A stretch of DNA of 36,223 nucleotides from a virus. Both the position numbers and the translations under genes were made by a program. Of this stretch, positions 648-33,611 are shown piece after piece. The stretch's first letter is position 1. The number at the start of each line of letters is the position of its first letter. The notes beneath the pieces were generated by a model. That model did no database searches, had not been told where the DNA came from, and worked only from the letters and a program-made list of their open reading frames with translations. The stretch lies in the UHGV virus genome UHGV-0136979. One strand, given 5' to 3'.

Positions 648-788
648 TTACTGCTTACACTGTAAGAACGCCGCAAACTCCGCTCCCCAGAAGCTCATCC
701 GTATTTCACACAGCGAACCGTGCAGCATCCAGATGATGAGGATTGCCGTCACGCAGAACGTGATGGCCGTAAGCGATTTTTGCGACAT
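648..788 (-). CDS. Hok/Gef-family type I toxin-like small membrane peptide (46 aa), not in the ORF track
   Basis: Own translation: MSQKSLTAITFCVTAILIIWMLHGSLCEIRMSFWGAEFAAFLQCKQ. N-terminal hydrophobic helix plus the SLCEIR and E-x-AAFL-x-CK motifs recalled from HokA/Hok/HokE. GGAG lies 8 nt upstream of the ATG at 788 inside a possible CTCC/GGAG hairpin; a perfect 9-bp-stem hairpin (617..638) follows the stop. Confidence 0.6.
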   Translation of the reverse strand: MSQKSLTAITFCVTAILIIWMLHGSLCEIRMSFWGAEFAAFLQCKQ

Positions 789-1597: not shown

Positions 1598-2356
1598 CTA
1601 CTCTCTGTAAAATTCTGCGTGTAAAATTGAGGCCAGTGCTGATGGGTTTTCCCATGACATGGAATGTCCTGCTTTTGGCACTATTGCAACAGATATTCCT
1701 GATTCTTTTATATGCTGGAAATCATTGTCTGGCAATGATTGTTCGCCGAAAATTAGTGTACGTGAACAGGGCAGATTAAGGAAGATATCTCTCCATGATG
1801 GAGTGGCTCCATCAACCAGACTTTTGGCTCCTCGCCATATTGCCCATGGGGCTGCATTCTGGAGTTCACCTTTCCATGGGGATGTCTCTTGCTCCAGTAA
1901 TTCATCGTATATGTGTGAGATAAACTCTGCTTCTGGTTTCTCTATTATCTTACGACTATATGTACCTCCACCAGAGTGAAAATTAGGTTCAGAAACTACA
2001 AGCTTTCTTGTTCGTTCATGTAGTTGTCTGGCTACTTCAATCGCAATACTTCCTCCCATACTGTGACCATAAATATGGAACTGTGAGAGATTTAATGTTT
2101 CTACTACTTCAATAACAACTTTAGCTTGATGGGATATGCTGTAATCGAATCTTTTAGGCTTATCACTAAACCCATATCCAGGGAGATCTATCAATATTGC
2201 TCGTTGTCCACCAAATGCAGGGTCTGCAACAACCCGTGGATATTCATAAGAAGAAGAACAGCCAAGCCCATGAATAAAAATAACAGGAATACCCTGACCA
2301 GGTAAATCATGCCAACGTACATTTGCTCCGGCAATTAAAGAAAACAAACTGAACAT
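1598..2356 (-). CDS. alpha/beta-fold hydrolase (esterase-like; BioH/YbfF-like by eye), cargo gene
   Basis: 252 aa; HGLG oxyanion region, GHSMGG nucleophile elbow and C-terminal AGHSMSWENP histidine region; AT-rich flanks (1241..1597, 2357..2482) contrast with the phage backbone. Confidence 0.8.
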   Translation of the reverse strand: MFSLFSLIAGANVRWHDLPGQGIPVIFIHGLGCSSSYEYPRVVADPAFGGQRAILIDLPGYGFSDKPKRFDYSISHQAKVVIEVVETLNLSQFHIYGHSMGGSIAIEVARQLHERTRKLVVSEPNFHSGGGTYSRKIIEKPEAEFISHIYDELLEQETSPWKGELQNAAPWAIWRGAKSLVDGATPSWRDIFLNLPCSRTLIFGEQSLPDNDFQHIKESGISVAIVPKAGHSMSWENPSALASILHAEFYRE

Positions 2357-23474: not shown

Positions 23475-24520
23475 TGAGCAGAAAAAATAAAAAAGTGCGC
23501 ATGAGTTCACGCATTGATCTCGCTGATGCGCTCAGGAAAGAATCATCGCTCAGTGCATTCACATTTGATGGTCCTTATCGCCTGACCGGGCATGACCTGC
23601 TGGACAATATGTACTGTGCTGATAACGGGCGGTGGTATGAAACCCCGGTGGACTGGTACGGTCTGGCAAGAGCTGCCCGGCAAACGTCCTGGCATCAGTC
23701 TGCGCTTTACTTTAAGCGTAATGTATTGCTCGGCTGCTATATTCCGCATCCGCTGCTTTCCCGGCAGGATTTCTCGGCGCTGGCGCTGGACTGGTTTGTG
23801 TTCGGTAACGCATTCCTTGAGCTTCGGAGCAATATGCTCGGCGAACCGCTTAAATTACGGCACGCCCTGGCGAAATACATGCGACGCGGAAGCGATCTTG
23901 AATCATGGTGGTATGTGCAGGATGGCAAGGACGCGTTTCAGTTTCGCCCTGGCAAAGTGTGCCACCTGATGAATCCTGACATTAACCAGGAAATCTACGG
24001 CATGCCGGAATATCTCGGCGCATTACTCTCGGCCAGCCTGTCTCATTCGGCGGACATGTTCAGAAAACTGTATTACGACAACGGATCCCACGCCGGGTGT
24101 ATCATCTACATCGGTGCAGCGCAGGTAAACCGCGAAAGCATGGACTCCCTGAAAGAAACGCTACAGGGTGCACGTGGTGGTGGTGCGTTTAAAAACGTGC
24201 TCATTCATGCGCCCAACGGGGGCAAAGAAGGTGTGCAAATTTTGCCGTTCCAGCAGATCACCGCAAAGGATGAGTTCATGAATGTTAAGGCGGCATCCCG
24301 TGATGATGTGCTGGCTGCGCACCGCGTTCCGCCGCAACTGATGGGGGCGATGCCGGGTGAAAAAAGTGCGTTTGGTGATGTGGAAAAGGCCGCGCGGGTT
24401 TACGCAATTAACGAGCTGATGCCCGTTATGGAGGCCATGAAGCACATCAATGACTGGCTTGGCGAAGAGGTGATCCGTTTTAATTCTTATGCTCTTCTTG
24501 ATGAAAAAACAGCCCCGTGA
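23474..24520 (+). CDS. Q: portal protein Q
   Basis: 348 aa (P2 gpQ is 344 aa); start overlaps the P stop (ATGA). Confidence 0.9.
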   Translation: MSRKNKKVRMSSRIDLADALRKESSLSAFTFDGPYRLTGHDLLDNMYCADNGRWYETPVDWYGLARAARQTSWHQSALYFKRNVLLGCYIPHPLLSRQDFSALALDWFVFGNAFLELRSNMLGEPLKLRHALAKYMRRGSDLESWWYVQDGKDAFQFRPGKVCHLMNPDINQEIYGMPEYLGALLSASLSHSADMFRKLYYDNGSHAGCIIYIGAAQVNRESMDSLKETLQGARGGGAFKNVLIHAPNGGKEGVQILPFQQITAKDEFMNVKAASRDDVLAAHRVPPQLMGAMPGEKSAFGDVEKAARVYAINELMPVMEAMKHINDWLGEEVIRFNSYALLDEKTAP

Positions 24521-24535
24521 TGGGGCTGTCCTTTT
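24502..24535. terminator. bidirectional rho-independent terminator shared by Q and the convergent cargo ORF
   Basis: A6-ACAGCCCC (24508..24515), loop GTGAT, GGGGCTGT (24521..28)-CCTTTTT; the Q stop codon lies in the loop and the T-tract overlaps the 3' end of the convergent ORF. Confidence 0.7.
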
Positions 24536-25184: not shown

Positions 25185-25558
25185 GACTCTCCAGCTCCTG
25201 TATCAATCAGATAATTTCGCGACGTCTTCCGACTTATCGCTATCATCGACGGCCAGACTCTTACACAATCCCGCCGCGCTGACTGCATGTTCTCGCCGCC
25301 TCAGTGCGATTTTGACGGCCTTACCTTTCATCCCATCAAATCAGAACACCTTACGTCTTTTTCACGCTCAGCGTGAGCGATACAGCCATTTTGTTGTGTC
25401 GCTGCGACATCGTTCAGGGAATGCTATTTACCCCCTGAAACGCGGGCTGTTCCCCCGTCACCTGCGCGCAGAAAAAGCGTGTTTTTTTGTGCACGCACGG
25501 ATCCTTGGCGGATCCAGCCGCCACGCGGGCCGGAAGGGCAAAAAGTCGTTCAAAAAAA

Positions 25559-25585
25559 TTGTGCAAATTTGTGCACTATTGTGCA
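25559..25585. repeat. three tandem TTGTGCA repeats at exact 10-bp phasing
   Basis: TTGTGCA at 25559, 25569 and 25579, followed by an 8-bp-stem hairpin (25588..25611), just downstream of the operon stop at 25625. Confidence 0.6.
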
Positions 25586-26796: not shown

Positions 26797-27108
26797 TCAT
26801 TCAGGAAATAATGCCCGGATATTCCCTGCTATCTGACTGGTTATCTGTGCGGTTGGTACTGGCTGTGACACGGGGCGTTCTGTCCTGGTTTGTGTCACCG
26901 ATAACGCCTCATCGTCAGCCCATGCAGCCAGTCGGTAAGCCTCTGCTGGATTCATTTTCAGAAGTGCCAGCCCGGCCAGAAAAGCCACGCGTTGGCCGCT
27001 TTTGCGGGCTTCTGGTGTAAGGCTGTCCAGCCAGGCGCATGCTTCGCCTTCGTTCTTGACGGCGGCGGGCTTCAGATAGAAACTTATCCGTCTGGTTGGA
27101 GTCGTCAT
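26797..27108 (-). CDS. parR: ParR-like ribbon-helix-helix adaptor
   Basis: Start at 27108, 5 nt after the ParM stop, with AAGGAG upstream; 103 aa; RRISFYLKP...LAGLALL and C-terminal IRALFPE resemble plasmid R1 ParR as I recall it. The track ORF 26797..27243 is an upstream over-extension. Confidence 0.6.
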   Translation of the reverse strand: MTTPTRRISFYLKPAAVKNEGEACAWLDSLTPEARKSGQRVAFLAGLALLKMNPAEAYRLAAWADDEALSVTQTRTERPVSQPVPTAQITSQIAGNIRALFPE

Positions 27109-27112
27109 TGGT

Positions 27113-28072
27113 TTACTCCTTGTCCATTGCGTACAGCCCATTAACCAGAGCAAACTGTGGCACCCCGTCCGCGATGAAAGTCGCATTAACTCCGCAGGCT
27201 TCGCGGATAGCGGGTGCCACAATCTCCGCCCCGCCACCGACAACCATCACCCGCCCGTAACCCGAAAAACCCGCCAGCGCGCGGATCACGCGTTGTTTCA
27301 GTGTTTCTTCCTTTTCACGAATAACCGCCATCAGGTTGGCGTAATGCGCGTCATTGTGGATGTGCTGGCGCAGCCAGGCTTCATCATGGCGATGTTCGAT
27401 AATGGTATTGGCGATGTGGTGACTGGTGCGCATACCGTTAGTGGCCATCACCGACAGTACGGCATCGGCCATCAGAGAAACGCCTACGTGTGGATCGCAA
27501 AACACCTGGCTGATACCTGCCAGTTGCCCCTGAACCTTTGCCACATCCAGCGTGGTTCCGCCCAAATCCACAATCAGCAGGGATTCAAACGGACTCATGT
27601 CAGCCAGTGCTTTAAAGCCAGCCGGAATGGATTCAGGCATAACCCGTACGTTACGGATAGTGAATGCTTCGCCGTTCTGGTACTCCACCGGGCGCATAAC
27701 GTTCGCTTTTTTGCGGCTGATGTTAGCCATGTCCGGCTGTGCGTTTGTGTCGAAATACTCGCTCAGTGGCAGGGTGACAACCACATCCACCTCCTGTGGC
27801 GTGATGCCTGATTTGACCAGCGCGTGATGAATGGCAATGACATTCACATCGCTGTACTGGTATTGCGTGTCGGTCGTCTGGACAAAGCGATCGCTGACCG
27901 GATCAAAACCATAGCGCACGCCATCAAGCATGTAGTTCGCGGGCTGCGTACCACCGAACGGCGCAGACCATTCCGACTTGAAGCTGTTCGGGCTGATGGC
28001 GTTGCGGCGTTCGCCGTTCTCAGTCCATGCCAGCTTGATGTTGGTGGAACCGTCGTCGATACAAATTTTCAT
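27113..28072 (-). CDS. parM: ParM/StbA-family actin-like ATPase
   Basis: 319 aa; MKICIDDGSTNIKLAW (phosphate-1), LIVDLGGTTLDV (phosphate-2) and VMVVGGGAEIV (adenosine) motifs; near-collinear resemblance to plasmid R1 ParM from memory. Confidence 0.85.
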   Translation of the reverse strand: MKICIDDGSTNIKLAWTENGERRNAISPNSFKSEWSAPFGGTQPANYMLDGVRYGFDPVSDRFVQTTDTQYQYSDVNVIAIHHALVKSGITPQEVDVVVTLPLSEYFDTNAQPDMANISRKKANVMRPVEYQNGEAFTIRNVRVMPESIPAGFKALADMSPFESLLIVDLGGTTLDVAKVQGQLAGISQVFCDPHVGVSLMADAVLSVMATNGMRTSHHIANTIIEHRHDEAWLRQHIHNDAHYANLMAVIREKEETLKQRVIRALAGFSGYGRVMVVGGGAEIVAPAIREACGVNATFIADGVPQFALVNGLYAMDKE

Positions 28073-28100
28073 GTCGCTTTTCCTTATGTTGATTAATTAA

Positions 28101-28216
28101 TCGTTTACGGGATTCTGAAATCCCGTTTTTGCCTGTTTTGTGCGCGCTTCATATATCGCTGCGCGTTTTTTGCTCATTTACGGGATTCGTGAGTCCCGTT
28201 TCTGTCTGTTTTTTGT
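28101..28216. repeat. two copies of a 40-bp hairpin-plus-T-tract repeat, about 73 bp apart, straddling the A stop
   Basis: Copy 1 (about 28104..28140): TTTACGGGATTCTGAAATCCCGTTTTTGCCTGTTTTG; copy 2 (about 28177..28216): TTTACGGGATTCGTGAGTCCCGTTTCTGTCTGTTTTTTG, inside the 3' end of A. The T-tracts are on the + strand although both flanking genes are on the - strand. Confidence 0.65.
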
Positions 28217-30971
28217 TTCCACTGGTCAGGCCACCCCGCAGCAGGTCTGCTTTGCGGCGGGCGCGTTCAGTGGTTTCACTGATTCTCTGTGCGTGCTCTG
28301 CGTCACGGATGGCGCGCAGCATGTCAGAAAGCACGGTAACGGGTGTTTTCATGGTGTTCTGGTCCTGCTGAAGTGTGGATGCCAGGCGTGCGGCGGCTTC
28401 AGGGTCTGATGCCCCCAGCTGTTCCAGATAGCTGGCGACCGGGTTATGGCGGATCTCCGTGCTGCTTACGCCGTGATTACGGCTCAGGCGTTGCCAGAGC
28501 TGCGTGATCCGGCTGTCCGGGCGGGTATCCGGTTTGCGTACAATTTCAAATCCCTGCGGTGCAATGATGCTGCCGTCAACGTACAGACTGCCGCCCCGTA
28601 ACAGGTGCTGCATCTGTTGTTCACCGATATGCAGGCCGAGAGATTCAGCAGACTCCCGCCATTCTTTAGCGAGTAATTCGTGGTTATCAGGCAAAGGCCG
28701 CGGCTGTTTGCGGCTCTGTGTCCAGCTCTGCATTTCATCACTGCTGTTTTTTGCCTGTTTGTCACGAAGCGAACGCATCAGCGCCCGGCGTTCGTGCCGT
28801 TTCAGTGAGCGCATCCATTCGTTCACGTCAACGCCATCAGGAAGCTGCGGCCACGGTGCTGGCCGTTCTTCCGGCTGTTCTGTCCCGTTGTTGTCCGTTT
28901 CCTGTACACGGGGACAGTTATTGCCACGAGTCCAAGGGGCGGCAGGGCCGCCCTGAAGGTCAAAACCATTTTCGCGGGCGCTGTCTTCCGCTTCCGGTTT
29001 GCGTCTTACCAGCTTCCAGTTGTCCGGATGCGTGCATACGCGGGAAGACTCCCCGATGAGCGGTGACCAGATCCCGTAAATCTGTACGCTCTGTTCACCG
29101 TAATCGTTCAGCTCATCTGCGAGGTCGTAGGCGGTGCGAATCAGGTAGTCCTTGCGTGGAACAAGTACGCCGCCCTGTTTCTCTATGTAGGTGGCAAAAC
29201 ATCCGGCATCAGCGGCAGCAAGAACCGCGTCCATTGCGTCATCCTTCAGCCGTTGCGGTCCTTCCGGGTTGCGAGCCATCTGGCTGGCAAGGCGGCGCAG
29301 TTCACGCCACACCTGACGGGAGGGGATACCAAAGAACTGGAACTGGCGGACCCGGTGAAGGCGCGCCCAGCCGATGGCGCGTTCCACGCTCTCGGCCATT
29401 GATTTTCCGGTTTCGTGGTCAACGCGTGGCTTGCCCGTTTTCGGGTCGATGCCATCCACGGCACGGCTGTCCAGGTTTTTCCCGATGTAGGTGGCGATGT
29501 AGCTGGTCGGTGTGCCTTTTGAGCCGTCGACGTACTCCGCCTTAAAGCGTGGGGTAATATCATCACCCAGCTCGTGACGATCTTCCTGAATGGCAATATC
29601 GCGGGTGTGGGACACAATAGTGTCGATTTCTTCCGGATGAGCAAAGACCATCATATGCCAGTGCACGGTGCCGTCATGGTGAGGCTCCACCGTGCGGATG
29701 CCATACCAGCGCAGGCCGTCGCGGTTCAGTTTCTTGCGGACCGCCGCAAAAAACGTGTTAACCAGGTAATCGCTGGAGTCGCGCATGGTGGCCCCGTTCC
29801 ATTTGGGATTCGGATGACCGTTCTCCGTTGTTGCGTGGTATTTTGACGGGCAGGTGACAGTCAGAAACACCGCTTTGTCGCCACGGGCTTCGGCCAGAAG
29901 TTCCAGCCCCTTCATGGTGGCCATCATTTCTGCCTTACGGTGAACCGGGTTACTTACTCCCGCGTAATACACTGTCTCGAGATCAATCGTGAACCCATCT
30001 TCGTTTTCCAGCATGAAACTTTTCAGGAAATCGCGTGTTTTCTCGCGCTGTGCGCGAAACTCGCTTAATGCGTCCTGGCTCAGATAGGGCGATGTTTTTC
30101 TGGAAACCAGACAGGCGGCGCGGAGTTGTTCTTCTCTCCACTCGCAACGTAACAGCCACAGTTTGCGTTTCCACCATTCCGTACAGGTCAGGCGAAGGAT
30201 TGCGCCCGGCAGCAGCTCCGTGTCCGGTTCGTTCCTCCGGTCTTTATCTGTTGTCAGTGCGTCATAATGTGGAGGCATGATGTGCAGGTGTAACGCCATG
30301 CGGGCCAGCATCTGATACGCCTTCAGCGTTACATCCATGGTCAGTTCGCCATCGGTCGCGCCAAAGCCATCGCAGAGTTTTTCGAAGGTGCTGCTGAACA
30401 TCGCCGCCGTCATGGTGGCCAGCGTCTGTATCTGGTGCTTGTTGAGCTGCGGCAGGTAAAGCAAATCATCCAGGCGTTCGCGTCCGGCAAGGGAGCGATA
30501 ACCCGGTGTCAGCCAGCGATGGTCGGTGCGGTCCAGACGTTCGAATATTTTGCGCAGGGTTCCGCGCGCGTAGCGTTCAGCCTGCCAGCTCTTTTTGCCT
30601 TTCCGGCGATCGGCTTCCTGTTTTTTGCGCAGGAAGGAGAGGTGGCGAATAAGCGGATCGCGCAGATAGGACGGCAGCAGGCGCAGCGAGGCCATGGCTT
30701 CATCCACCGCACCGCGTACCTGTTTTCTGGCGTCTCCTGCCAGTGTGATGGTTTTGTCCTGTTTTTCCTGTGCGTCCAGGCTTTTATTAATCAGGTTGCC
30801 CAGCGGCGTGGCGGAGAACGCCGCATCAGCCATTTCCTGGCGGCGCTCGTTCTCTGCCCGGTAGGCATCCAGCCAGGAGGAAAGCGCGGATTCAGGAACG
30901 GGGATCCCCGTTCCTTCACGCCCCACTGCGTGGCGCGGTTGTTGCCAGTCCCTGATGTACTCTGCCGTCAT
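28149..30971 (-). CDS. A: replication initiation endonuclease A (rolling-circle, HUH type)
   Basis: 940 aa; HUH-like TVHWHMMVF and paired active-site tyrosines SYIATYIGK; conserved position. About 180 aa longer than P2 gpA (761 aa, from memory). Confidence 0.9.
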   Translation of the reverse strand: MTAEYIRDWQQPRHAVGREGTGIPVPESALSSWLDAYRAENERRQEMADAAFSATPLGNLINKSLDAQEKQDKTITLAGDARKQVRGAVDEAMASLRLLPSYLRDPLIRHLSFLRKKQEADRRKGKKSWQAERYARGTLRKIFERLDRTDHRWLTPGYRSLAGRERLDDLLYLPQLNKHQIQTLATMTAAMFSSTFEKLCDGFGATDGELTMDVTLKAYQMLARMALHLHIMPPHYDALTTDKDRRNEPDTELLPGAILRLTCTEWWKRKLWLLRCEWREEQLRAACLVSRKTSPYLSQDALSEFRAQREKTRDFLKSFMLENEDGFTIDLETVYYAGVSNPVHRKAEMMATMKGLELLAEARGDKAVFLTVTCPSKYHATTENGHPNPKWNGATMRDSSDYLVNTFFAAVRKKLNRDGLRWYGIRTVEPHHDGTVHWHMMVFAHPEEIDTIVSHTRDIAIQEDRHELGDDITPRFKAEYVDGSKGTPTSYIATYIGKNLDSRAVDGIDPKTGKPRVDHETGKSMAESVERAIGWARLHRVRQFQFFGIPSRQVWRELRRLASQMARNPEGPQRLKDDAMDAVLAAADAGCFATYIEKQGGVLVPRKDYLIRTAYDLADELNDYGEQSVQIYGIWSPLIGESSRVCTHPDNWKLVRRKPEAEDSARENGFDLQGGPAAPWTRGNNCPRVQETDNNGTEQPEERPAPWPQLPDGVDVNEWMRSLKRHERRALMRSLRDKQAKNSSDEMQSWTQSRKQPRPLPDNHELLAKEWRESAESLGLHIGEQQMQHLLRGGSLYVDGSIIAPQGFEIVRKPDTRPDSRITQLWQRLSRNHGVSSTEIRHNPVASYLEQLGASDPEAAARLASTLQQDQNTMKTPVTVLSDMLRAIRDAEHAQRISETTERARRKADLLRGGLTSGNKKQTETGLTNPVNEQKTRSDI

Positions 30972-31691: not shown

Positions 31692-31877
31692 GTTGAGAAT
31701 CTCGGGGTGGCGAGACGTACAGGGTTCTCAACACCGGAGAGCAAAGAATCCGGCCCGACCGAAGTCGGCCCCGTACGCCCCGCCATAATTCTGACGCGAA
31801 AAAGACGTGGCAATACAGTACGCACAAAAAAACCGCTTGCGCGGTTATGCGCTTTGCTCTGTATCGGGTTGAGAATC
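31692..31877. repeat. three copies of GTTGAGAA(T/C)C (two direct, one inverted) in a 320-bp non-coding early-region segment
   Basis: GTTGAGAATC at 31692..31701 and 31868..31877; inverted copy GTTCTCAAC at 31724..31732. Confidence 0.55.
31824..31846 (-). terminator. rho-independent terminator on the - strand within the early region
   Basis: On the - strand: AACCGC-GCAA-GCGGTT followed by TTTTTTTGTG. Confidence 0.55.
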
Positions 31878-31968
31878 CCGGCACCAGTTTTATGAGGTGC
31901 AGCGGAAATGTAACCTGACCGATTGAGGCATGGCAAGCGGTTTTTTTGTGTGTGCATGTTCTGGTTTC

Positions 31969-32754: not shown

Positions 32755-33165
32755 CTATGCGTTAAATATGGTGTGTCGGGCGTCATCAATGAATGCAACT
32801 TGAGAGCGCTCTATCAGGCGGAGATTTGTCAGAAGCGCTGATTCCCTTATGGGGTGAGGAGTGATCAGGTATTTGTTCTGTAATCCGGCGATAATGGTGT
32901 ATCGCTGTGGCTCCGAGCCAATAGTGTAAATAAGGCGTCCGGTGTCAGATAAATCCAGTCCGGTGACTGGTTTAGTTTTGAGAAGCGCAAGTTCCACACC
33001 CTGTTTTTCGATGATTTTGGCAGCTTCTGCCGTGACTTTTGCGACTATCATTGTGTGGGTTGCGACGTCCATGTGAGCATTAGCCACGGCTTTTTTCGCT
33101 ACTTCGCTTTCCATCTTTGAAATTTCTTTCAGTGCTCTGATGATACCTTCTTCTTTTGCGTGCAT
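32755..33165 (-). CDS. hypothetical early protein
   Basis: 136-aa track ORF. Confidence 0.5.
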   Translation of the reverse strand: MHAKEEGIIRALKEISKMESEVAKKAVANAHMDVATHTMIVAKVTAEAAKIIEKQGVELALLKTKPVTGLDLSDTGRLIYTIGSEPQRYTIIAGLQNKYLITPHPIRESALLTNLRLIERSQVAFIDDARHTIFNA

Positions 33166-33258
33166 TTTTGTATCTCCGTTATTTGCGTGTGCGAATACCT
33201 CCGTTAATACGGATGGTTTTCACGTTTTCTTATTTAATTTGATGTTTTATTTGTATCG

Positions 33259-33372
33259 TTATTCATCAGAGAAAAAACGCTCGATCTTTTTCACTGAATT
33301 AATAATTCGCATAATCCCAATGGCGCAGGCCACCGAAATAATCAGAACAAGCCATGAGATAAATATACTCAT
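33259..33372 (-). CDS. 37-aa hydrophobic small protein, not in the ORF track
   Basis: Own translation MSIFISWLVLIISVACAIGIMRIINSVKKIERFFSDE; ATG overlaps the stop of the upstream gene (ATGA); one predicted transmembrane helix plus a charged tail. Confidence 0.45.
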   Translation of the reverse strand: MSIFISWLVLIISVACAIGIMRIINSVKKIERFFSDE

Positions 33373-33611
33373 GCGATATTCCCCAGCTTATACGGTTCAA
33401 TATGTTCTCCGCATTCTGCGGCACAGAGCAGCTCGGAAAGTTCGTTAAGTGCATCCAGATCATCAGCGTAAAAAGCCACGTCATACAGACTCCGGATTGC
33501 CCTGGTCAATGAGTCACGGGCTGCACGTTCAGCATGAACGCCTGATGCGCTTAAGCGAAAATAAAAACGCTCAAGTGCTTTGTTGATGAGTGTTTTATAT
33601 TCTTTGCCCAT
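33369..33611 (-). CDS. hypothetical early protein
   Basis: 80-aa track ORF. Confidence 0.45.
   Translation of the reverse strand: MGKEYKTLINKALERFYFRLSASGVHAERAARDSLTRAIRSLYDVAFYADDLDALNELSELLCAAECGEHIEPYKLGNIA

What the first reader, a model, noticed from the sequence alone, without database searches (positions are those of the whole stretch)
28101..28216. Tandem hairpin repeats between parM and A, one copy inside the A coding end
Two 40-bp units about 85 percent identical, each a dyad (ACGGGATT..AATCCCGT or ACGGGA..TCCCGT) followed by a T-rich tract on the + strand. Neither flanking gene is on the + strand, so as terminators they would act on antisense transcription; alternatively they are iterons for the ParR-like protein (a parC-like centromere upstream of parM) or relate to the replication origin that P2-type phages carry inside A.
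Basis: seen in the sequence. Interest (0 to 1): 0.5.

Follow-up and report, generated by a model that had tools for sequence, protein, structure and literature searches.

The report
Predicted centromere of a prophage ParMR system
The two hairpin-like repeats are most likely the DNA site (centromere, parC) that the neighbouring ParR protein grips so that the actin-like ParM can move the DNA; it belongs to a plasmid-type partition cassette carried by a very common P2-like E. coli prophage, and is an uncharacterised but unsurprising part of a known kind of system.

Summary
Two 42-bp direct copies (28101-28142, 28174-28215) are 81% identical and 73 bp apart. Each holds the dyad ACGGGATT-N4-AATCCCGT. 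Copy 2 lies in the last 22 codons of replication gene A.

The window is a P88-like (Xuanwuvirus) prophage. The genes downstream are an intact R1-type parM and parR.

The repeats travel with parMR, not with A:
- A par-less relative loses homology at ~28248.
- Another phage has both repeats behind an unrelated ORF.

Hafnia and Plesiomonas P2-like phages (ParM 62-63% identical) keep GGG-N9-CCC cores at two sites 73 and 72 bp apart. They lose the T-rich tails and any stable hairpin.

Across 70 distinct P88-like haplotypes, every stem change is one-sided and none is compensatory.

The region has the strongest 10.5-bp A-tract phasing in the window, as the R1-type parC region does.

Best reading (about 0.7): a split, parC-like ParR-binding centromere. 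It differs from R1 parC in three ways: dyad sub-sites, overlap with the end of A, and no recognisable promoter.

The terminator and ori readings are not supported. ParR binding itself is untested.

The parts
28174..28215 (-). Distal 42-bp repeat unit (copy 2) of the predicted parC. It contains dyad 28180-28199 and lies inside the last 22 codons of gene A.
   Evidence: The majority allele in relatives is the perfect dyad ACGGGATTCACAAATCCCGT. The GGGA-N6-AA-N-CCC core is invariant in the Hafnia and Plesiomonas phages.
28143..28173 (-). 31-bp spacer between the two units. It holds the A stop codon (28149-28151) and a short GC-armed, AT-centred stretch. No sigma-70 promoter is detectable here.
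   Evidence: In R1 the equivalent 39-bp core holds the par promoter. The same scan found that promoter in the R1-type control but found none here.
28101..28142 (-). Proximal 42-bp repeat unit (copy 1) of the predicted parC. It contains dyad 28107-28126, 33-52 nt upstream of the parM ATG.
   Evidence: The CGGG-N8-A-N-CCC core is invariant across three genera. The central G/C pairs are invariant in 70 haplotypes.
28073..28100 (-). parM leader. It holds the ATTAAT(T/C)AA block, conserved in the Hafnia and Plesiomonas phages, and the Shine-Dalgarno sequence AAGGA 7 nt before the ATG.
27113..28072 (-). parM, the actin-like segregation ATPase (319 aa).
   Evidence: Pfam StbA_N 4e-82 and the ParM C-terminal domain 1e-68. 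It is 40-52% identical to plasmid ParMs.
26797..27108 (-). parR, the ribbon-helix-helix centromere-binding adaptor (103 aa). It is the presumed binder of the repeats.
   Evidence: Pfam Plasmid_stab_B 1.6e-24. It aligns with R1-type ParR, with a conserved N-terminal RRISFYLKP strand and a C-terminal NxxxLFP tail. The family profile hits pB171 ParR, PDB 2JD3, at E=6e-19.
28149..28247 (-). The last ~33 codons of replication gene A. They are supplied by the par cassette, not by the conserved A gene.
   Evidence: Homology with the par-less relative MS20654 stops at ~28248. In L057 homology with the window starts at ~28213 behind an unrelated 155-aa ORF.

Best explanation
The 115-bp stretch 28101-28215 is the cis-acting site of a type II (ParMRC) partition cassette carried by this P88-like P2-family prophage. 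In other words it is a parC-like centromere.

Inferred mechanism:
- ParR is a ribbon-helix-helix protein encoded two genes downstream. ParR dimers bind the two 20-bp dyads (cores CGGGA...TCCCG), probably as dimers of dimers. They may extend cooperatively over the helically phased AAAC/A-tract sub-sites in each 42-bp unit.
- The two clusters sit 73 bp apart, about 7 helical turns, so they face the same side of intrinsically curved DNA. They could close into one ParR-DNA complex whose clustered C-terminal tails capture the growing end of a ParM filament.
- No promoter is recognisable, and the A reading frame runs through the distal unit. parMR is therefore probably co-transcribed with the early operon through A.
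- Bound ParR could dampen read-through into parMR as a roadblock, rather than by promoter occlusion as in R1.

Shown here: the repeat anatomy, intact ParM and ParR, linkage of the repeats to the cassette, conservation of cores and spacing, A-tract phasing, and the lack of compensatory stem changes.

Inferred only: ParR binding, stoichiometry, the roadblock idea, and any role in the phage life cycle.
For: (1) Position and partners. The repeats lie directly upstream of an intact parM-parR pair. ParR keeps the N-terminal beta-strand and the C-terminal ParM-binding-type tail, and its family profile hits the solved pB171 ParR.

(2) Linkage to the cassette.
- Par-less P88-like prophage MS20654 shares A up to ~28248 and then has dam plus an AAA ATPase and no repeats.
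- L057 has a different A allele and an unrelated 155-aa ORF, yet carries both repeats and parMR from ~28213 on.
- About 1355 E. coli genomes carry this A 3' part and 1285 carry the repeats.

(3) Deep conservation of the cores, not of the hairpins. Hafnia and Plesiomonas P2-like phages have ParM 62-63% and ParR ~36% identical. They align without internal gaps (one single-base gap in Plesiomonas). They keep GGGA-N6-AA-N-CCC and CGGG-N8-A-N-CCC at spacings of 73 and 72 bp. The A/T-rich flanks are only 19-38% identical.

(4) Stem census. Over 70 distinct haplotypes there are 25 dyad variants. All changes are one-sided, none is compensatory, and the central GG/CC pairs are invariant.

(5) DNA physics. 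This is the strongest 10.5-bp A-tract periodicity among 3610 windows of the 36 kb (shuffles 0-5 per 500-2000). The same signature appears upstream of R1-type, IncL/M and IncF parM genes. AAAC occurs 7 times in 136 bp against 0.7 expected, at spacings near multiples of 10-11 bp.

(6) Geometry. The 42+31+42 bp layout parallels R1 parC, which is 55+39+55 bp (PMC2241845). Split centromeres upstream of parM are the norm for type II systems (PMC5016525).
Against: No binding or stabilisation data exist for this cassette. The assignment is purely comparative.

Characterised ParRs are reported to bind direct repeats (PMC9426499), whereas the strongest signal here is a dyad.

There are only two strong sites, against ten iterons in R1.

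No sigma-70 promoter is found in or near the element, so the autoregulated-promoter feature of R1 parC is missing.

Within P88-like phages the repeat region is not less polymorphic than its neighbours: pi is 0.03-0.08 against 0.014 in parM and 0.045 in A.

The prophage is almost always chromosomally integrated (1418 of 1420 places). What a centromere would segregate is therefore unclear.

The Serratia and Enterobacter P2-like cassettes use a quite different repeat, a 19-20-bp inverted repeat, so the architecture is not universal.
Confidence: 0.7

Rival explanations
1. The two hairpins are Rho-independent terminators acting on + strand (antisense) transcription. They would shield A and the early operon from convergent transcripts.
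For: In this window both sites fit the terminator template on the + strand: an 8-bp stem, a 4-nt loop and a T-rich tail. Stem energies are -10 to -11 kcal/mol.
Against: - There is no + strand gene or detectable + strand promoter upstream.
- The convergent late P-Q operon already ends in a stronger terminator at 24509-24529.
- A frequent P88-like allele (GCGGGATTTAAAAATCCTGT) reduces the + strand hairpin of copy 1 to -5 kcal/mol, z -0.14.
- The homologous Hafnia and Plesiomonas sites fold no better than shuffles and have no T tail.
- The T-rich flanks are only 19-38% conserved while the GGG/CCC cores are invariant.
Confidence: 0.07
2. The dyads act as RNA hairpins in the - strand A-parM mRNA. 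They could be a processing or stability element, or could modulate parM translation.
For: The - strand RNA also folds (-9 to -11.6 kcal/mol, z about -3). Copy 1 lies in the parM leader. The two common copy-1 polymorphisms give G-U wobbles on this strand.
Against: All polymorphisms in copy 2 break pairing on the - strand (C-A mismatches). No compensatory change is seen in any of the 16 pairs. In Plesiomonas only a 4-bp stem with a 10-nt loop remains. No Rfam family matches.
Confidence: 0.08
3. The repeats are binding sites for some other protein (a host nucleoid protein, A, or a phage regulator), or a functionless duplication left by the recombination that inserted the cassette.
For: ParR binding is untested. 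The region is as polymorphic as its surroundings. Cassette junctions fall at or near the distal repeat.
Against: A relic would not keep two cores and a 72-73-bp spacing across genera in which ParR is only ~36% identical. The sites co-occur with parMR in three different upstream contexts and are absent from the par-less relative. The dyad occurs nowhere else in the prophage, which does not suit a general regulator.
Confidence: 0.12
4. The repeats belong to the P2-type replication origin that lies inside gene A.
For: Copy 2 is inside the A reading frame. From memory, P2-family origins lie within A.
Against: The last ~33 codons of A, including copy 2, are replaced in a relative with the same A gene. 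In L057 and in Hafnia the repeats lie behind or inside unrelated ORFs, not in A. The deletion derivative L106 keeps only copy 2.
Confidence: 0.02

Closest known systems
parC of plasmid R1 (type II ParMRC; two sets of five 11-bp iterons flanking the par promoter)
   Same: - It lies immediately upstream of parM-parR.
- ParM and ParR are homologous (Pfam StbA and Plasmid_stab_B; ParR aligns along its whole length with R1-type ParR).
- It is split into two repeat clusters with a 31-39-bp core.
- It has strong 10.5-bp A-tract phasing (R1 parC is reported to be strongly curved).
- Its A-rich/C-rich sub-motifs (AAAC......CCC) resemble the R1-type AAACCC iterons seen in L008.
   Different: - The conserved cores form a dyad (CGGGA-N-TCCCG) rather than five direct 11-bp iterons per cluster.
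- There are only two strong sites.
- No promoter is found in the core.
- The distal cluster and spacer are translated as the tail of the upstream replication gene.
- It sits in an integrating phage, not a plasmid.
pB171 par1 / pSK41 ParR-parC complexes (solved ParR structures; 10-bp or 20-bp repeats bound by RHH dimers or dimers of dimers)
   Same: The ParR family profile matches pB171 ParR (2JD3) at E=6e-19. A 20-bp unit bound by a dimer of dimers (pSK41; PMC5016525 and PMC9426499) fits the 20-bp dyads here.
   Different: The sequences are unrelated. Those repeats are direct and tandem (continuous in pSK41). Binding here is inferred, not shown.
parMR cassettes of other P2-like prophages (Hafnia, Plesiomonas, Serratia, Enterobacter; found here)
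   Same: They occupy the same slot between gene A and the portal gene. Hafnia and Plesiomonas share the two-site GGG-N9-CCC layout at 73 and 72 bp and the ATTAATCAA leader.
   Different: The Serratia and Enterobacter cassettes (ParR strand RKISFYL instead of RRISFYL) instead have a 19-20-bp inverted repeat, AGGAACGAAATAGAAAAAT, with 28 bp between the arms.
Intrinsic (Rho-independent) terminators
   Same: A GC-containing 8-bp stem, a 4-nt loop and a T-rich tail on the + strand.
   Different: There is no transcription unit to end, and neither the hairpin nor the tail is conserved in homologues.

Membership tests
Type II partition centromere (parC of ParMRC loci) | Lies next to (normally upstream of) a parM-parR operon | tested here: met
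   The repeats lie 29-143 bp upstream of the parM ATG, and parR follows parM after 4 nt.
Type II partition centromere (parC of ParMRC loci) | Cognate actin-like ParM and RHH adaptor ParR are present and intact | tested here: met
   Pfam StbA_N 4e-82 plus the ParM C-terminal domain, and Plasmid_stab_B 1.6e-24. The ParR N-terminal strand and C-terminal tail are conserved. The profile hits PDB 2JD3 at E=6e-19.
Type II partition centromere (parC of ParMRC loci) | Array of repeated units (iterons), continuous or split in two clusters | tested here: inconclusive
   There are two direct 42-bp units 73 bp apart and 7 phased AAAC motifs. However, the conserved cores are dyads and only two strong sites exist. 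Classical parC sites have 4-10 direct repeats.
Type II partition centromere (parC of ParMRC loci) | Repeats co-inherited with their ParR across contexts, and co-varying with it | tested here: met
   They are present with parMR behind A, behind a 155-aa ORF (L057) and behind a 167-aa ORF (Hafnia). They are absent in par-less MS20654. Phages whose ParR strand is RR[IV]SFYL share the GGG-N9-CCC cores, while RKISFYL phages have a different repeat.
Type II partition centromere (parC of ParMRC loci) | ParR binds the repeats specifically and cooperatively | not testable with these tools
   This needs EMSA, footprinting or ChIP.
Type II partition centromere (parC of ParMRC loci) | Stabilises a replicon in cis and exerts incompatibility | not testable with these tools
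   This needs plasmid-loss and incompatibility assays.
R1-type parC specifically | The par promoter lies between the two iteron clusters and is repressed by ParR | tested here: not met
   No sigma-70 match of at least 8/12 occurs on either strand in 27950-28270. The same scan finds TTGACT-16-TAAACT in the R1-type control. The spacer instead holds the A stop codon.
R1-type parC specifically | Helically phased A-tracts (intrinsic curvature) | tested here: met
   The best period is 10.5 bp. The region ranks at the top of 3610 windows, with shuffles 0/500 to 5/2000. The R1-type, IncL/M and IncF regions show the same.
Rho-independent terminator | Stable GC-rich hairpin followed by a U tract on the transcribed strand | tested here: met
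   Met on the + strand of this window only.
Rho-independent terminator | Sits at the end of a transcription unit on that strand | tested here: not met
   There is no + strand gene or promoter upstream, and the late operon terminates at 24509-24529.
Rho-independent terminator | Hairpin and tail maintained in homologues (pairing kept by compensatory change) | tested here: not met
   No compensatory change occurs in any of the 16 pairs. A common allele abolishes the + strand hairpin, and the Hafnia and Plesiomonas sites fold no better than shuffles. The tails are 19-38% identical.
P2-type origin of replication inside gene A | Part of the conserved A gene and present wherever that A gene is | tested here: not met
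   The region is swapped out in MS20654 although A is ~95% identical up to ~28248. In L057 and Hafnia the repeats lie outside A.

The most novel reading that the evidence does not exclude
A very common integrating P2-like prophage, present in about a quarter of complete E. coli genomes, carries a complete and functional actin-type segregation machine. Its centromere is built from dyad sites, is fused to the end of the replication gene, and has no promoter of its own. The machine would then be switched on only with the early (lytic or establishment) operon. It would act on extrachromosomal phage circles: spacing replicating genomes, or making sure both daughter cells inherit a copy before integration. 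That would be a phage use of ParMRC rather than a plasmid one.
Probability: 0.2. Interest if true: 0.7.

Novelty: new variant of a known kind. Interest (0 to 1): 0.4.

Why it matters
If ParR does bind here, this defines the centromere of a ParMRC family found in roughly 1300 of 5400 complete E. coli genomes, as well as in Salmonella, Citrobacter, Hafnia and Plesiomonas phages.

It would also show a parC layout that departs from the textbook one: dyads instead of direct iterons, no internal promoter, and overlap with an upstream coding end.

It sharpens an open question as well: what does a plasmid-partition machine do for a phage that integrates? The same prophage also carries a hok/gef-type toxin gene, another plasmid-maintenance module.

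Practically, the result warns annotators that these terminator-looking hairpins should not be read as terminators.

Tried and rejected
- **Rfam.** Scans at the gathering threshold (whole window) and at E up to 10 (27900-28400) gave nothing for the region.
- **Plasmid search with the 188-bp region.** It found only P88-like prophage copies and no plasmid parC relative.
- **Locus scans with the single ParM protein.** Scans of genome and viral contigs returned only 97-100% identical copies, useless for deep comparison. Intermediate relatives had to be reached through the protein search plus contig look-ups.
- **phmmer of ParR alone against the PDB.** It found nothing. The family profile was needed.
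- **Third partial copy.** The 13-mer TTTTTGCCTGTTT at 28748-28760 looked like a third partial copy. It is also present in the par-less A gene, so it is unrelated to the cassette.
- **Promoter hunt.** A search for a parM promoter or an antisense promoter found no candidate on either strand. The conserved ATTAAT(T/C)AA block has T at position 2 and I could not assign it.
- **Long-range pairing of the two dyads.** The folded 146-nt RNA pairs them (z about -4). That follows trivially from two similar palindromes, so I did not use it.
- **Lower polymorphism in the repeats.** I looked for reduced polymorphism as a sign of constraint and did not find it.

Full report
**What is there**

The window is a P88-like (Xuanwuvirus, Peduoviridae) prophage. 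The 2.2 kb around the finding are 98.3% identical to phage P88, and 1266 of 5426 complete E. coli genomes hold at least 80% of that stretch.

On the - strand the gene order is:
- replication gene A, 28149..30971 (Phage_GPA, 1.4e-131);
- parM, 27113..28072 (StbA_N 4e-82 plus the ParM C-terminal domain);
- parR, 26797..27108 (Plasmid_stab_B, 1.6e-24);
- cargo ORFs, then the portal and terminase genes converging on the + strand.

The repeat finder gives two 42-nt direct copies, 28101-28142 and 28174-28215. They are 81% identical and 73 bp apart. Each holds a 20-bp dyad (28107-28126 and 28180-28199). The dyad pattern occurs nowhere else in the 36 kb.

The A stop codon is at 28149-28151, in the 31-bp spacer. 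Copy 2 is therefore translated as part of the A tail.

**Whose repeats are they?**

- E. coli MS20654 has a P88-like prophage with the same A gene (95% identical). Downstream it carries dam plus an AAA ATPase instead of parMR. Homology with the window stops at ~28248, so both repeats and the last ~33 codons of A are missing.
- IMG/VR contig L057 has a different A allele (783 aa) followed by an unrelated 155-aa ORF. From ~28213 onward it has both repeats, the same stop codon and parMR.
- L106 is a deletion derivative that lost parMR and copy 1 and kept copy 2 as the end of A.

About 1355 genomes hold this A 3' part and 1285 hold the repeats. The repeats are therefore the upstream end of the par module. 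The A frame simply reads into them, which also disposes of the ori idea.

**Deep comparison**

Plasmid ParMs are at most ~52% identical. The intermediate relatives all turned out to sit in P2-like phages in the same slot, between A and the portal gene: Hafnia (62%), Plesiomonas (63%), Serratia (57-58%) and Enterobacter (54%).

The Hafnia and Plesiomonas upstream regions align with the window essentially without gaps. Three-way invariant positions are:
- GGGA-N6-AA-N-CCC in the distal site;
- CGGG-N8-A-N-CCC in the proximal site;
- an ATTAAT(T/C)AA block before the Shine-Dalgarno sequence.

The site-to-site spacing is 73 bp in Hafnia and 72 bp in Plesiomonas.

The A/T-rich flanks make the sites look like terminators in E. 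coli, but they are only 19-38% identical. The antisense-strand sequences of these homologues fold no better than shuffles and have no T tail. In Plesiomonas the distal site again lies inside the end of A. In Hafnia both sites overlap the end of an unrelated 167-aa ORF.

The Serratia and Enterobacter cassettes have a ParR strand reading RKISFYL rather than RR[IV]SFYL. They use a different element, a 19-20-bp inverted repeat with 28 bp between the arms.

**Hairpin or protein site?**

I collected 70 distinct haplotypes of the region from 85 P88-like loci plus the window. The 16 stem pairs show 25 dyad variants. Every change is one-sided, none is compensatory, and the two central G-C pairs of each dyad never vary.

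Wobble-preserving changes favour the - strand in copy 1 and the + strand in copy 2, so neither RNA is consistently protected. A common allele of copy 1 (GCGGGATTTAAAAATCCTGT) drops the + strand hairpin to -5 kcal/mol, z -0.14.

On the transcription side:
- The late P-Q operon has its own strong terminator at 24509-24529.
- No + strand promoter or gene lies upstream of the repeats.
- No Rfam family matches.

This is the pattern of a sequence-specific DNA site, not of a selected hairpin or terminator.

**Resemblance to known centromeres**

ParR aligns over its whole length with R1-type ParR. It has a conserved N-terminal strand (RRISFYLKP) and a C-terminal NxxxLFP tail. A profile of the family hits pB171 ParR (PDB 2JD3) at E=6e-19. 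ParR alleles that are only ~55% identical overall keep exactly these two ends, and they keep the same repeats.

R1 parC is 159 bp: two sets of five 11-bp iterons around a 39-bp promoter core. It is strongly curved (PMC2241845). Type II centromeres are repeat arrays upstream of parM, either continuous or split (PMC5016525).

Here the layout is 42+31+42 bp. The region has the strongest 10.5-bp A-tract periodicity of 3610 windows in the 36 kb (shuffles 0-5 per 500-2000). The same signature appears upstream of R1-type, IncL/M and IncF parM genes and in the Serratia phage. AAAC occurs 7 times in 136 bp against 0.7 expected, at spacings close to multiples of 10-11 bp.

**Differences and caveats**

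- Characterised ParRs are reported to bind direct repeats (PMC9426499). Here the conserved cores form a dyad and only two strong sites exist.
- No sigma-70 promoter is found on either strand, although the same scan recovers the R1-type promoter. parMR is therefore probably read through from A. Any ParR feedback would have to work as a roadblock, which is my inference.
- The repeat region is not less polymorphic than its neighbours.
- The prophage is almost always chromosomal: 1418 of 1420 places. What is being segregated is unknown.
- I found no paper in the held library that describes this parC. P88 and phiSM papers list the par genes only as cargo, or do not mention them.

**Verdict**

The best explanation is a split, dyad-based, promoterless parC-like ParR-binding region belonging to the phage's ParMRC cassette (about 0.7).

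| Rival | Estimate |
|---|---|
| Other protein site, or a functionless relic | ~0.12 |
| mRNA hairpins on the - strand | ~0.08 |
| Antisense (+ strand) terminators | ~0.07 |
| Part of the ori inside A | ~0.02 |

It is a new variant of a known kind. Interest is moderate, and comes mainly from how widespread the cassette is and from the unexplained role of ParMRC in an integrating phage.

Noticed in passing
window 31703-31790 (-) and 31826-31900 (-): Rfam hits above gathering score: C4 antisense RNA (78.5 bits) and, directly next to it, isrK Hfq-binding RNA (59.8 bits). They lie in the early region upstream of A.
   Followed up: no
window 648-788 (-): A 46-aa ORF (MSQKSLTAITFCVTAILIIWMLHGSLCEIRMSFWGAEFAAFLQCKQ) matches Pfam HOK_GEF (29.9 bits, cut-off 22). 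A Hok/Gef gene is annotated at the equivalent place, near ogr, in NZ_CP148288.1. The prophage therefore carries a second plasmid-maintenance-type module besides parMR. No Sok-like RNA was reported by Rfam at the gathering threshold.
   Followed up: partly
L105 = NZ_CP148288.1 (34,461 bp, circular): A complete P88-like phage genome, from integrase to ogr and including parMR and the repeats, is deposited as a circular 'plasmid' of a complete E. coli assembly. Phage records CP025923 and CP025874 also have CP-type accessions. This may reflect an extrachromosomal form or spontaneous induction. By contrast, 1418 of 1420 places in E. coli genomes are chromosomal.
   Followed up: partly
window 26797-27054 (parR 3' half); L107, L109: ParR is mosaic. 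Alleles only ~55% identical overall keep the N-terminal ~45 residues and the last ~9 residues, but have an unrelated middle and C-terminal half. Many BLAST matches to the window break at ~27054, inside parR.
   Followed up: partly
window 24509-24529 (+): A strong terminator-like hairpin (9 pairs, 6 of them G-C, then a T tract) overlaps the stop of the portal gene. It is presumably the real terminator of the late P-Q operon.
   Followed up: no
window 25469-25494 and 25551-25576: Two 26-nt direct copies 82 bp apart (CAGAAAAAGCGTGTTTTTTTGTGCAC and CAAAAAAATTGTGCAAATTTGTGCAC), the second overlapping a palindrome. They lie in the region between the portal gene and the cargo genes, where cos or a cargo promoter might be.
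   Followed up: no
window ~32960-33140 (-): The second-strongest 10.5-bp A-tract periodicity in the window, between the divergent ORFs 32755..33165 (-) and 33140..33448 (+). It may be the immunity or early control region.
   Followed up: no
L100, L101 (Serratia), L102 (Enterobacter), about 50-120 nt upstream of parM: These P2-like phage parMR cassettes have a different candidate centromere: a 19-20-bp inverted repeat (AGGAACGAAATAGAAAAAT / ATTTTTCTATTTCGTTCCT) with 28 bp between the arms, plus phased A-tracts. In L102 parM follows a methyltransferase gene and a 71-aa ORF rather than A.
   Followed up: partly
L106 (E. coli CUVET19-1704) and L112: Decay forms of the locus. L106 has lost parM, parR and copy 1 but keeps copy 2 as the end of A, fused to the ead/Ea22-like gene. 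L112 has A split into several ORFs and IS fragments downstream of parR.
   Followed up: partly
window 1598-2356 (-): A 252-aa alpha/beta-hydrolase-fold protein (Abhydrolase_1, 4e-21) lies between the ogr end and the tail genes. It is an unusual cargo gene for a P2-like phage.
   Followed up: no
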